Shown piece by piece: positions 12,001-15,000 of a DNA stretch of 64,000 nt. This stretch comes from Escherichia coli. GTDB lineage: Bacteria; Pseudomonadota; Gammaproteobacteria; Enterobacterales; Enterobacteriaceae. Made by a program: the position numbers. Location of the stretch: assembly GCF_030013205.1 (NCBI RefSeq), contig NZ_CP122648.1. The stretch is one strand, 5' to 3'. Position 1 is the stretch's first letter. The number at the start of each line of letters is the position of its first letter.

Positions 12001-15000
12001 AAATTCATGATGCAGTAAGAAAAGATACTGTGAGATTTAATTCTCCATCTAATGGAGTAACGGCTGTTTCAGGGTTTAAAGTGATTTCGGTTGTCCCTGT
12101 TCCATGAATGGTTATAGAAGGGGCTGGAAGCCCCTAATTATTACTTCTTAATATCGCCAGTGCATTGATATTCGATAGTCACAAGTGTTTGCATACAACC
12201 AGATGAAGAAGGTTGTGAACATTGAGAAGTGAATCCACCAAAAGGCTCGGCTCCTGAATATCCCCAAGCGGCACAACGCGCTTTGGCTGCATTCATGCCT
12301 TGTTGTGGATCTACAACAGGACTTTCAAACATACCGTAAGAATAACTCATCCTAACTGTGCCGTCTGATTTGCTTCCACCAGTTGGAACGAGTTGTTTTT
12401 TTGTTGCACATCCAGAAATAATCAATGTTGAAGCAAGTAACAGCATTAAACTTTTGCGCATGTAAATAATCCCAAGAGATAATGGTTATGTATTGATTTA
12501 AAGCGTTTTTAGATTAATGCATTAACTTAGCAAAATTAAGTCTTTTCTGATTGTTTGCAGAGTAAAAATGAGTTGCTTTCGAAATTATTTCGGATGTTTA
12601 TTGTATTACGGTTTTTCAAACCGTCTAACTATTGTCGCTATTGAATGGGCAATAATAGCAAGAGGATTCATTTCGTCATTGGAGGCAACAAAAAGTCGGT
12701 AACTGATAGCTACAACGAATGAAACAATAACGAGAAAGCGGATAGTGCTAAGATGTTTTGAAGATAAATGCATAACGCCCCCTAAATGAATGTGAGGGGG
12801 ATTAAATCATGCAAATTTGTTGTGTGCAATACTGGTAATTTATCCTAATAGTCTACTATTCACCTCAATCTACGTCAACCAATATTTGATGTAGATTTGA
12901 TTTTCTTTTAAAAACAATATGTTGCAATTTGTTGGGTTTTGGGGTTAGGTTGTTTTTTGGACGTTTCCATCAAGTGTAAAGATACGTTTAGCCTTCATAG
13001 TGAGTTCAGTTACTGTCTTTTTCTCTGAAATCGGCGCATACGTGATCATCGCTTAACGAGAAGATCAGCGCCGTCAGGTCCATGCAGCGACAATTCTGAA
13101 ATATCAGGAGGCATTACGCTTCCTGCTCTTTCTTGATACGTTGCACCGTCTGTGTGCTGACACTGAAATCTTTTGCTACGCTCCGAATTGATCCACCATT
13201 CGCGAGAGCGGCAACAATTCCCGCTCGATCAATTGCTTTTCCATTACCACGTTTTGCTATACGCCCAGCTGCCTTAGCTGCGGCGATCCCTTCACGTTGA
13301 CGCTCAAGCATCATTTCACGTTCCATTTGTGCCACTGCTGCAAGCACTGTGAGCATCATATTCCCTGCGGGAGAGTTCTTCCCTGTCTTAAAGTCTTCTT
13401 TATGGAAATGCACAGACACGCCGCGCTCTGTTAATTGCTCAACCGTTGCCAGAAGGTCGGCTGTATTACGGCAAAGGCGATCAATACTGTGAACATGCAA
13501 AACATCACCTTCCCGCACATAGTTCATCATTGCCTCAAACTGTGGGCGCTGGGTATTCTTGCCTGACGCTTTATCTTCAAAGACTTTATCAAGAGCTACT
13601 CCAGCTAATTGACGGTCTGTGTTTTGTTGCACAGTCGATACCCTAATGTATCCAATATTAGCCATTTTCTTTATTCCTTCTGTGTTGATTTGTGTGTAGT
13701 GATTATTGATCGTGTTGATTAGGTGTGTAAAGGACTTTTTTCACTACGAAATTCGAAGGTTTTTAGTGTGGTGATTTAGCCTGCTTTATCACTACACGTC
13801 TTGCATGAGAATCATGTAGTTACGTTTTGGTAAAATTAGCAAGCTATTAAATAGTGTGTTTATTTTGAAAAAATAATTTTTTGTTGCATTAAAGAAAACT
13901 TGTTCGACAAATAATAGATTGATTTTTAATCAATAATTTCTGATAGTGCTCTGTAAGCCGCATTACACAAGGCTTTGCGAAAGTGATGTAAAAGTGAAGA
14001 AAGTAAGAATTGCACTTTTAAGCTACTTTTCATTGAATTTTTAGTATGGAATTACACAGGGATTAATCATCAATTACATTGAATTTAAGCCTGTTTTAGA
14101 TGTTTAATTTTGGTAGCAAGAAACACTTTTAGAAGATCATTGCACAGATGTTATGTGATAAATGGATGTAACGATGGGTTACATTCAGCTATCTGAAATA
14201 CTCTCTGTAAGAAATTTGGTAGTAACGATTCGTTACATAGACTAATTATTGAATGTAACGATATTACACATCGGTAGTAACGATACGTTACATCGGCAGA
14301 TGATTGGTTGTAACGAAAGGTTACACAATAAGACTAACATCTATAATACTAATAATAAAACTAACTATTAAACTATATAATATAATTCTTTTTTATCTTT
14401 ATAAGAATAATTATAGGGATACCCGTTAGGGAGTCTAACGACTATCCCTTAATCTATTGGCATTCGCCAGAACCTTGCACAAGTTAGAGTGTTAGTCGTT
14501 AGACTGCTTGTCATAACACATAGTTTTTGTTTGTTGATGTTAGTTAGTAGATCTATGTTCGCTTTCCGCTCACAACGAATATGTAATCTACTATGTGCAA
14601 ATAGCCTACGGCTTGCGTAAGGCTAAATAGTCTTGCGCTGTGCGCAGAACGATAATTAACTAACTACCATCTAACGATCATCAATCATCTAAAATAAATT
14701 TCTTGTGCAATGTTCTTGCGAATGCAATTAGGGTAGCGTTACCCCTTTGGGGATGCTAACGCATAACTATAGATCAACCATCAAACAGACAAAAAAGAAA
14801 AATATGGTTTAAAGATGTTAGGTAGTAGATGAGTTTCTACCGCTTAAATCAAGCCGTAGGCGAGCTAAACGTATATAAGGTAGGGAAACACTTAGCGGTA
14901 ATAGATTAGCTCGTTATAGAGATTCTGAGGAGCTTTACAGGTATTTTATAAGGTGTCTGAAATTAGATTTTATCTACCATCACCTTTTCATATACCTAAC

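What the first reader, a model, noticed from the sequence alone, without database searches (positions are those of the whole stretch)
14163..14320. Five closely spaced palindromes built on GTAACG half-sites in an ORF-free AT-rich region
Sites of the form (T)GTAACG-N1-5-CGTTAC(A) recur five times within 160 bp, about 500 bp upstream of the invertase gene and 1.5 kb upstream of a winged-helix protein gene. The density and conservation suggest a high-affinity operator or origin-like array for an element-encoded DNA-binding protein.
Basis: seen in the sequence. Interest (0 to 1): 0.55.

Follow-up and report, generated by a model that had tools for sequence, protein, structure and literature searches.

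The report
Phage-satellite replication origin iterons
The GTAACG palindromes are most likely the initiator-binding repeats of the replication origin of a small phage-parasitising island in E. coli, read by the island's own winged-helix protein and probably also targeted by a nuclease that some phages carry to destroy such islands.

Summary
There are four 15-bp palindromes GTAAC-N5-GTTAC and one degenerate copy at 14167-14325. About 0.002-0.06 are expected by chance, and there are none elsewhere in the window. The half-site spacing is fixed, not N1-5. The array lies in a ~14.8-kb tRNA-Gly island (about 11386-26149) of a putative E. coli phage-satellite family published in 2023; I found no description of its origin or repeats. 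In 37 related loci, five types of N-terminal DNA-binding domain in the island's ~225-aa protein (15783-16463) each pair with their own palindrome type. That type is always the one nearest the least stable DNA of the locus. The invertase and the other neighbouring genes do not follow the array. The protein model's best structural match is the origin-binding domain of the Vibrio PLE satellite initiator RepA, followed by staphylococcal RepA_N initiators. Phage Inny carries the same domain (87% identity) fused to a T5orf172-type nuclease, as ICP1 Odn does against the PLE origin. Best reading: initiator-binding repeats (iterons) plus a DNA-unwinding element of the satellite origin (confidence about 0.7). 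An operator role is a weaker rival, and an invertase site is excluded. This is a new member of a known kind and of moderate interest.

The parts
14167..14183 (.). Iteron 1, TGTAACGATGGGTTACA (one arm GGTTAC)
   Evidence: Conserved in type-A loci.
14221..14237 (.). Iteron 2, AGTAACGATTCGTTACA (perfect arms)
14254..14270 (.). Degenerate iteron 3, TGTAACGATATTACACA (intact left half-site, right arm decayed and 2 bp closer)
14276..14292 (.). Iteron 4, AGTAACGATACGTTACA (perfect arms)
14309..14325 (.). Iteron 5, TGTAACGAAAGGTTACA. It is the last site and abuts the AT-rich element.
   Evidence: Its centre lies 18 bp before the start of the least stable 80-bp window in every type-A locus.
14326..14415 (.). 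Putative DNA-unwinding element, about 85% A+T. The 80-bp window at 14335-14414 is the least stable duplex in window 10001-27000.
   Evidence: -75.3 kcal/mol against a mean of -105.6 (sd 7.8). In 39 of the 42 loci profiled the array-adjacent element is also the least stable DNA of the whole locus; in two of the three exceptions an IS lies between the gene and the array.
14320..14347 (+). Promoter-like match GTTACA-16-TATAAT, whose -35 overlaps iteron 5. Function is uncertain.
   Evidence: By the same criteria it is present only in type-A loci.
14400..14745 (+). Strongly self-complementary conserved ORF-free segment just after the AT-rich element. Whether it belongs to the origin is open.
   Evidence: MFE -110.6 against -75.3 for shuffles, z = -6.3. 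It is too conserved to give covariation evidence.
15783..16463 (+). Putative initiator, 226 aa from the ATG (the ORF is open from the GTG at 15726). It has a RepA_N/DnaD-like winged-helix N-terminal domain of type A (residues 1-130), an acidic disordered linker, a small helical C-terminal domain and the C-terminal tip ...YDSIPF.
11386..26149 (.). Approximate extent of the satellite-like island that carries the array. The left end is where homology to the tRNA-Gly island of strain K_EC180 begins. The right end is a 22-nt copy of the tRNA-Gly 3' end (26128-26149), just beyond the tyrosine integrase (24822-26042, minus strand).

Best explanation
The array is the initiator-binding repeat set (iterons) of the replication origin of a phage satellite integrated at tRNA-Gly.

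Proposed mechanism:
1. Dimers of the island's ~225-aa protein bind each 15-17-bp palindrome through the N-terminal RepA_N/DnaD-like winged-helix domain. This is inferred from covariation.
2. The sites lie on about the same face of the helix, so a multi-dimer complex can form (inferred).
3. That complex would melt the adjacent ~90-bp, 85% A+T element, the least stable DNA of the island (inferred).
4. The protein has no helicase or primase domain, so replication enzymes must be recruited from the host or the helper phage. This may happen through its conserved C-terminal ...(D/S)IPF tip, which resembles the SSB C-terminal peptide DDDIPF (speculative).

The same sites are the predicted target of the chimeric nuclease of phage Inny. 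That nuclease carries a type-A domain copy fused to a T5orf172/MUG113 nuclease domain.
For: 1. The palindromes are far beyond chance and confined to this spot.

2. Covariation. In 37 loci (23 distinct array sequences) from E. coli and Enterobacter, five N-terminal domain types pair exclusively with five palindrome types, and the cognate type is always the one nearest the least stable DNA:
- Type A: GTAAC-N5-GTTAC
- Type B: AGGAA-N5-TTCCT
- Type C: ACAGAATTCTGT
- Type D: TAGGTCA-N3-TGAnCTA
- Type E: TGATACCCCTATCA
The pairing holds across both C-terminal domain types. The invertase, ORF60, ORF55 and ORF89 do not follow the array.

3. The array abuts the least stable 80 bp of the island, 3.9 sd from the mean.

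5. Phage mirror. Inny gp184 has 87% aa identity to the type-A domain, plus a type-B domain and a MUG113/T5orf172 domain. The Mt1B1_P17 protein is type C plus type B plus nuclease. The Muut protein is a domain 41% identical to type C, whose close homologues are the island type-E proteins, plus type B plus nuclease. This parallels ICP1 Odn, which copies the PLE RepA domain and cuts the PLE origin at its iterons (PMC8263062). Barth et al. 2023 already proposed these E. coli islands as satellites with modular RepA domains (PMC10448857).

6. Layout. The PLE origin likewise lies in a large non-coding region about 1 kb upstream of the repA gene cluster, and its iterons are semi-palindromic (PMC7145576).
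Against: - There is no experimental evidence of binding or origin activity for any member of this island family.
- The loci are related, so the covariation counts are not independent events, although recombinant combinations exist.
- There are no DnaA boxes, and the one IHF-consensus match in the ORF-free region lies away from the array.
- A promoter-like element overlaps the last site in type-A loci, so a regulatory role cannot be excluded. Iterons commonly serve both roles.
- Some loci carry only one or two cognate sites (L007, L004).
Confidence: 0.7

Rival explanations
1. The array is an operator or regulatory array. The winged-helix protein would act as a transcription factor (repressor or class-II-type activator) that binds the palindromes and controls the rightward promoter-like element at 14320-14347. 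That promoter would drive a non-coding transcript or long leader across 14350-15350. No origin function is involved.
For: The last site is centred about -38 from the predicted start of a GTTACA-16-TATAAT element. The DNA downstream is ORF-free, conserved and highly structured as a single strand. The domain is a generic winged helix, which is also found in regulators. The covariation fits any cognate protein-site pair equally well.
Against: By identical criteria the promoter-like match is absent from type B, C, D and E loci, while the array plus AT-rich layout is kept in all of them. The operon containing the protein has its own strong promoter (TTGACA-17-TG-AATAAT at 15207-15235) about 1 kb downstream. 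The best structural matches are replication initiators. 190 of 210 homologues carry an SSB-like C-terminal tip, which has no obvious use in a repressor. Phages have built nucleases around this domain, as they did against the PLE origin.
Confidence: 0.17
2. The palindromes are recombination sites (res- or hix-like) for the adjacent serine invertase/resolvase (13114-13665).
For: The array lies 500 bp upstream of a Hin/resolvase-family gene. Resolvase res sites are clusters of imperfect palindromes.
Against: A 99.5%-identical recombinase sits next to GTAAC arrays (window, L002) and to AGGAA arrays with no GTAAC sites (L004, L014, L015). A 62%-identical one sits next to array types a, c, d and e. 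Many loci with arrays have no such gene. Unlike res subsites, the half-site spacing here is constant. No inverted partner array exists in the window.
Confidence: 0.02
3. The array is another cis-acting site for the same protein, such as a centromere-like, packaging-related or copy-control ('handcuffing') site, or a decoy for the phage nuclease, rather than the place where replication starts.
For: Arrays of dimer sites also build partition and packaging complexes. Non-cognate leftover sites in other loci show that arrays can persist without a cognate protein.
Against: The island has no ParA/ParM-type or terminase genes. The cognate array is always the one touching the least stable DNA. The fold matches are to initiators.
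Confidence: 0.08

Closest known systems
PLE (Vibrio cholerae satellite of phage ICP1): RepA, origin iterons and the phage Odn nuclease
   Same: - Both have an initiator with a RepA_N-type N-terminal DNA-binding domain and no helicase or primase domain.
- Both have semi-palindromic repeats in a large non-coding region about 1 kb upstream of the repA cluster.
- In both, the DNA-binding domain and the origin are exchanged as a module between elements.
- In both, lytic phages carry a copy of the domain fused to a T5orf172 nuclease.
Sources: PMC7145576, PMC8263062, PMC10448857.
   Different: - The sites here are short 15-17-bp palindromes, 3-6 per array, not three ~30-bp repeats converging on a poly-A tract.
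- The host, the helper phages (Stephanstirmvirinae) and the island gene content differ: decoration protein, major capsid protein, tape-measure protein, baseplate protein and tyrosine integrase.
- The phage nucleases here carry two tandem domains.
- The proteins here end in an SSB-like IPF tip.
Staphylococcal RepA_N plasmid replicons (pSK41, pTZ2162)
   Same: They are the top Foldseek matches to the N-terminal domain, including the Rep-iteron DNA complex 5KBJ. In both, dimers bind semi-palindromic iterons.
   Different: According to the RepA_N literature cited in PMC7145576, the iterons of those plasmids lie inside or next to the rep gene. Here they lie 1.45 kb upstream. The Pfam RepA_N model is not matched. 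The C-terminal domains are unrelated.
Phage lambda ori and O protein
   Same: Both have several dyad-symmetric initiator sites in helical phase followed directly by an AT-rich unwinding region. In both, the N-terminal domain sets origin specificity and is swapped among relatives. There are weak PHROG matches to 'replication initiation O-like'. The lambda details are from established knowledge.
   Different: The lambda iterons lie inside the O gene, and O recruits the phage P-DnaB complex. This island has no P-like gene and the sites lie far upstream of the gene.
Putative E. coli satellites of Barth, Dunham and Seed 2023 (224 elements)
   Same: This island belongs to that set by gene content (decoration protein, major capsid protein, tape-measure protein, baseplate protein, integrase, modular RepA-like gene, tRNA integration) and by its link to phage Inny.
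   Different: That paper does not mention iterons, palindromes or the non-coding region. The sites, the unwinding element and the map from domain type to site type are added here.

Membership tests
Iteron-type replication origin | Several repeated binding sites for one initiator, clustered | tested here: met
   There are four full sites and one degenerate site within 159 bp, against 0.002-0.06 expected.
Iteron-type replication origin | An AT-rich, easily melted element directly beside the repeats | tested here: met
   The 80-bp window at 14335 is the least stable DNA in window 10001-27000 (-75.3 against -105.6, sd 7.8). The array-adjacent element is also the least stable DNA of the whole locus in 39 of the 42 loci profiled.
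Iteron-type replication origin | A cognate initiator encoded by the same element, with specificity matched to the repeats | tested here: met
   There is a one-to-one match of five domain types with five palindrome types in 37 loci (23 distinct arrays). This is comparative evidence, not biochemical.
Iteron-type replication origin | The fragment supports initiator-dependent replication | not testable with these tools
   This needs an origin-cloning assay or marker-frequency sequencing.
Iteron-type replication origin | Host-factor sites (DnaA boxes, IHF), present in many but not all such origins | tested here: not met
   There is no TTWTNCACA match in 13666-15357. One-mismatch matches are not enriched (9 against 5.6), and there is no IHF consensus near the array. 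This feature is not obligatory for the class.
RepA_N initiator family (protein partner) | Match to the Pfam RepA_N model (PF06970) | tested here: not met
   Only HTH_36 (PF13730) is matched, in 6 of 7 sequences at E of 0.001 or better. PDB sequence search gives no Rep hits.
RepA_N initiator family (protein partner) | RepA_N/DnaD N-terminal-domain fold | tested here: met
   [not shown]
RepA_N initiator family (protein partner) | Binds semi-palindromic iterons as a dimer | not testable with these tools
   The palindromic sites fit dimer binding. No dimer model or binding assay was done.
Odn-type phage counter-defence target (as the PLE origin is) | A lytic phage encodes the element's DNA-binding domain fused to a T5orf172/GIY-YIG-type nuclease | tested here: met
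   Inny gp184 residues 1-140 are 87% identical to the window protein. It matches MUG113 (E = 5e-4) and T5orf172 (weakly) at residues 284-341 and PHROG 'endonuclease'.
Odn-type phage counter-defence target (as the PLE origin is) | The nuclease cuts at the repeats | not testable with these tools
   This needs an in vitro nuclease assay on 14150-14340.
Serine-recombinase res/hix sites | The sites co-occur and co-vary with the recombinase | tested here: not met
   The same recombinase sits next to different arrays, and arrays occur without a recombinase.
Lambdoid-type operator array | Sites overlap the core promoter elements of genes they flank, and the promoter is conserved in relatives | tested here: not met
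   No genes flank the array. A promoter-like match is found only in type-A loci.

The most novel reading that the evidence does not exclude
These initiators may start replication by a route not described for RepA_N-type proteins. The protein is a sequence-specific winged-helix dimer tethered by a disordered acidic linker to a C-terminal ...(D/S)IPF tip. That tip imitates the SSB C-terminal peptide (DDDIPF). Once bound at the palindromes, the tip would bring SSB-interacting replication proteins (for example PriA, the chi subunit of the clamp loader, or DnaG) to the melted AT-rich element and the hairpin-rich DNA beside it. The satellite would then need no helicase, loader or primase of its own.
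Probability: 0.3. Interest if true: 0.7.

Novelty: new member of a known kind. Interest (0 to 1): 0.5.

Why it matters
If correct, this pins down the origin of a widespread but experimentally untouched family of E. coli phage satellites. I found related DNA in 743 of 5,426 complete E. coli genomes, and 224 elements were listed in 2023. It also names the likely DNA targets of the Odn-like nucleases of phages Inny, Mt1B1_P17 and Muut, which makes that proposed arms race directly testable in E. coli.

The five matched pairs of domain and palindrome are a natural specificity series for one winged-helix scaffold. That is useful for studying how recognition changes, and possibly for building orthogonal replicons or targeting domains.

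The SSB-like tip gives a concrete hypothesis for how RepA_N-type initiators recruit a replisome. The PLE paper states that this is unknown (PMC7145576).

Tried and rejected
- **Rfam:** there was no match at gathering thresholds over the whole window, and none at E of 1 or better over 13600-15800.
- **tRNA scan of the window:** none found. The island's left end keeps only 18 nt of the tRNA-Gly.
- **Similar arrays in phages:** a 'distant' search of the phage collection found nothing.
- **Genome-contig scan with the protein alignment:** it returned only 2 loci, so diversity had to come from the E. coli collection and exact-protein look-ups.
- **NCBIfam and PDB sequence searches:** they gave only generic winged-helix hits.
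- **Invertase-site idea:** rejected on comparative grounds.
- **Conserved-promoter idea:** weakened, because the match is specific to type-A loci.
- **DnaA and IHF sites:** not found.
- **Covariation test of the structured 14400-14745 segment:** uninformative, because the homologues are nearly invariant there.
- **Conservation inside versus outside the sites among type-A loci:** 4/85 against 26/134 variable columns (Fisher p = 0.002). Twelve of the outside columns are a single 12-bp duplication in L002, so this test is weak and I do not rely on it.
- **Literature searches:** searches for a prior description of the origin, or of an SSB-tip initiator, found none in the held library. The library is incomplete.

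Full report
**1. The observation**

The region 14167-14325 holds four palindromes of constant geometry and one decayed copy. The consensus is (T/A)GTAACGA-NN-(C/G)GTTACA, that is GTAAC-N5-GTTAC. The decayed copy keeps the left half-site.
- GTAACGNNNCGTTAC with at most one mismatch occurs four times in the 64-kb window, all here, against 0.06 expected.
- Exact GTAAC-N5-GTTAC occurs four times in the AT-rich ORF-free stretch 13666-15357, against 0.0018 in 20,000 shuffles of that stretch.
- Relaxing to three mismatches adds only chance-level hits elsewhere.
- All five copies have GTAACGA on the + strand, and the flanks are also alike (tGGT-site-CAT).
- Centres of the full sites are 54, 55 and 33 bp apart, near-integral numbers of helical turns.

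**2. Context**

The window is E. coli chromosome. It is identical over 13600-15800 to strain K_EC180, where the island lies between tRNA-Gly and the ETT2 type III secretion genes. In the window, homology to that island starts at 11386. A 22-nt copy of the tRNA-Gly 3' end sits at 26128-26149, just past a tyrosine integrase.

In window order the island carries:
- a YecR-like lipoprotein gene;
- a serine invertase (13114-13665, minus strand);
- a 1.7-kb ORF-free stretch that contains the array;
- a strong promoter-like site at 15207-15235;
- ORFs of 60 and 55 aa;
- a ~226-aa winged-helix protein (15783-16463);
- several small ORFs;
- a lambda gpE-type major capsid protein preceded by a 124-aa ORF;
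- a tape-measure-like protein;
- an IS3-family insertion;
- a baseplate/tail-like protein;
- the integrase.

Related DNA is present in 743 of 5,426 complete E. coli genomes, at tRNA-Gly, tRNA-Leu, tRNA-Thr and other sites.

**3. What varies and what does not**

In related islands the DNA on both sides of the array is conserved. The array itself is replaced by other palindrome arrays at the same place, directly upstream of a conserved AT-rich block.

The ~225-aa protein is a mosaic. Its N-terminal domain comes in at least five unrelated-looking types (A-E). A conserved ...LPLTDAHITPP... hinge follows, then an acidic linker, then one of several C-terminal domain types.

I classified 37 loci (23 distinct array sequences, from E. 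coli and Enterobacter) by domain type, and asked which palindrome type lies nearest the least stable 80 bp upstream of the gene. The association was one-to-one:
- Type A: GTAAC-N5-GTTAC (5 distinct arrays)
- Type B: AGGAA-N5-TTCCT (7)
- Type C: ACAGAATTCTGT (3)
- Type D: TAGGTCA-N3-TGAnCTA (6)
- Type E: TGATACCCCTATCA (2)

Types A, B and D each occur with both main C-terminal types, so the array follows the N-terminal domain and not the rest of the protein.

None of the neighbouring genes follows the array. A 99.5%-identical invertase sits beside type-a and type-b arrays. The 55-aa ORF is 100% identical in loci with a, c and d arrays. ORF60 and ORF89 are 95-99% identical across A, B and D loci.

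The loci are related, so these are not 37 independent events. The recombinant combinations are what carry the weight.

Some loci keep leftover non-cognate sites further upstream. L008 has four palindrome types in a row. This reads as a history of module replacement.

**4. The DNA beside the array**

The 80-bp window starting at 14335, ten bases after the last site, is the least stable duplex in window 10001-27000. It scores -75.3 kcal/mol against a mean of -105.6 (sd 7.8). In 39 of the 42 loci profiled, the array-adjacent element is also the least stable DNA of the whole locus. In two of the three exceptions an IS lies between the gene and the array.

**5. The protein**

- PHROGs gives weak hits to replication initiators (O-like, DnaD-like).
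- Pfam gives HTH_36 only.
- An AlphaFold model built on 27 homologues has a confident N-terminal domain (pLDDT about 90, residues 1-130), a disordered acidic linker (133-165), a small helical C-terminal domain and a free tip.
- The first six Foldseek matches are staphylococcal RepA_N N-terminal domains, including a Rep-iteron complex.

The scores are modest, and ordinary winged-helix regulators follow closely. The fold evidence therefore supports the assignment but does not prove it.

**6. The phage mirror**

The DNA encoding the 55-aa ORF and the type-A domain is 96% identical to part of lytic phage Inny.
- Inny gp184 is a type-A domain (87% aa identity), then a type-B domain (75%), then a MUG113/T5orf172 nuclease domain.
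- The Mt1B1_P17 protein is type C (82%), then type B, then nuclease.
- The Muut protein starts with a domain 41% identical to type C, whose close homologues are the type-E island proteins, then type B, then nuclease.

This is the architecture of ICP1 Odn. Odn copies the PLE RepA domain and cuts the PLE origin at its iterons (PMC8263062).

Barth, Dunham and Seed (2023) already reported these three coliphage genes. They also reported 224 putative E. coli satellites with modular RepA_N domains (PMC10448857). That paper contains no mention of iterons, palindromes or the non-coding region, and no later paper in the library takes it up. It also states that the second domain of the phage proteins has no detectable satellite homologue. 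Here that domain matches type-B island proteins at about 75% identity.

**7. Mechanism**

Shown here:
- The sites exist far beyond chance.
- They co-vary with one protein domain.
- They abut the most meltable DNA of the island.
- The domain's best structural matches are origin-binding domains.
- Phages carry the domain on nucleases.

Inferred:
- Dimers bind each palindrome.
- The phased sites form a higher-order complex that opens the AT-rich element.
- Replication enzymes are recruited from the host or the helper phage.

The layout resembles PLE. There the origin lies in a large non-coding region about 1 kb upstream of the repA cluster, and RepA needs phage infection to work (PMC7145576).

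**8. Rivals**

An operator role is the main alternative. A GTTACA-16-TATAAT element overlaps the last site. That match is absent from type B-E loci by the same criteria, and the operon has its own strong promoter 1 kb downstream. Iterons often also regulate, so the two roles are not exclusive.

An invertase site is excluded. Chance is excluded.

**9. Comparison and novelty**

By its working parts this is an iteron-plus-unwinding-element origin with a RepA_N-like initiator. It is closest to the PLE origin in biology and to lambda ori in geometry (short dyad-symmetric sites in phase, followed by an AT-rich block). It differs in four ways:
- The sites lie 1.45 kb from the gene.
- There is no sequence similarity to known RepA_N proteins.
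- There are no DnaA boxes.
- The proteins have a conserved SSB-like C-terminal tip.

The island family and the arms-race idea are published. The origin, its sites and the map from domain type to site type are not published, as far as the held library shows. I rate it a new member of a known kind, with interest about 0.5.

**10. The most novel reading left open**

190 of 210 full-length homologues end in [IL]PF after acidic residues. Examples are ...YEDFDIPF and ...IYDSIPF, and distant members at about 30% identity share the feature. This resembles the SSB C-terminal peptide DDDIPF, which docks many replication and repair proteins (PMC5872125).

Together with the disordered acidic linker, this suggests that the initiator presents an SSB-like tail at the origin to recruit host factors. 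This is speculative, but it is cheap to test.

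Noticed in passing
L021 6233-7336 (phage Inny gp184); L024 1147-2133 (phage Mt1B1_P17); L023 1135-2133 (phage Muut gp154): Three Stephanstirmvirinae phages encode proteins made of two tandem island-type DNA-binding domains plus a MUG113/T5orf172 nuclease domain. The second domain in all three is about 75% identical to the type-B island domain. The 2023 paper describing these genes says the second domain has no detectable satellite homologue.
   Followed up: partly
window 16440-16460 (C-terminus of the 15783-16463 protein), and homologues P0001-P0235: 190 of 210 full-length homologues end in ...(D/S)[IL]PF after acidic residues, across at least three unrelated C-terminal domain types. 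This resembles the SSB C-terminal peptide DDDIPF. In the model it sits at the end of a disordered acidic linker and a small helical domain.
   Followed up: partly
window 14400-14745: The ORF-free segment just after the AT-rich element is unusually self-complementary as a single strand (MFE -110.6 against -75.3 kcal/mol for shuffles, z = -6.3). This includes 30-nt arms at 14454-14483 and 14702-14731. It is conserved in related islands, but too invariant to test for compensatory changes. It could be an RNA or single-strand initiation hairpins.
   Followed up: partly
L008 5237-5710 (also L034 and L043): Some related islands carry up to four palindrome types in a row, and even two AT-rich blocks each preceded by an array. 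Only the array next to the last AT-rich block matches the resident protein. These look like fossils of successive origin-module replacements.
   Followed up: partly
window 15207-15235: There is a near-consensus promoter-like site (TTGACA, 17 bp, TG-extended AATAAT) about 120 bp upstream of the 60-aa ORF. It is conserved in related loci and probably drives the operon that includes the initiator gene.
   Followed up: no
window 15562-15729: By eye, the 55-aa ORF looks like a ribbon-helix-helix protein. It is 96-99.6% identical at the DNA level to genes in phages Inny and Muut. It is 100% identical between islands with different array types, and it is absent from type-B islands.
   Followed up: partly
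window 22677-23950: An IS3-family element (orfA 136 aa and orfB 301 aa) is inserted between the tape-measure-like gene and the baseplate-like gene. It is absent at this position in strain K_EC180 (the alignment gap).
   Followed up: no
window 1-11385: The DNA to the left of the island is not the xdh/tRNA-Gly region seen in K_EC180. It is a run of same-strand ORFs that look phage-like, and the window contains no tRNA. The island may therefore sit in tandem with another element that occupies the tRNA-proximal position.
   Followed up: no
L010 (JAEWTL010000083.1): A 9.4-kb contig labelled 'MAG: Bacillota bacterium' carries a 99%-identical copy of this E. coli island, including the four GTAAC sites. 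It is probably a binning or contamination artefact.
   Followed up: no
L002 about 4560-4582 (equivalent to window 14163): One type-A relative has a 12-bp duplication (ATGGATGTAACG) that adds an extra GTAACG half-site before the first palindrome. This is an example of small-scale restructuring of the array.
   Followed up: no
window 19017-20436 and 20823-22646: The island has a 124-aa ORF directly before a lambda gpE-type capsid gene, in the position of a decoration protein. It also has its own tape-measure-like and baseplate-like genes, but no portal, protease or terminase. This gene set is unusual for a satellite and was already noted by Barth et al. 2023.
   Followed up: no
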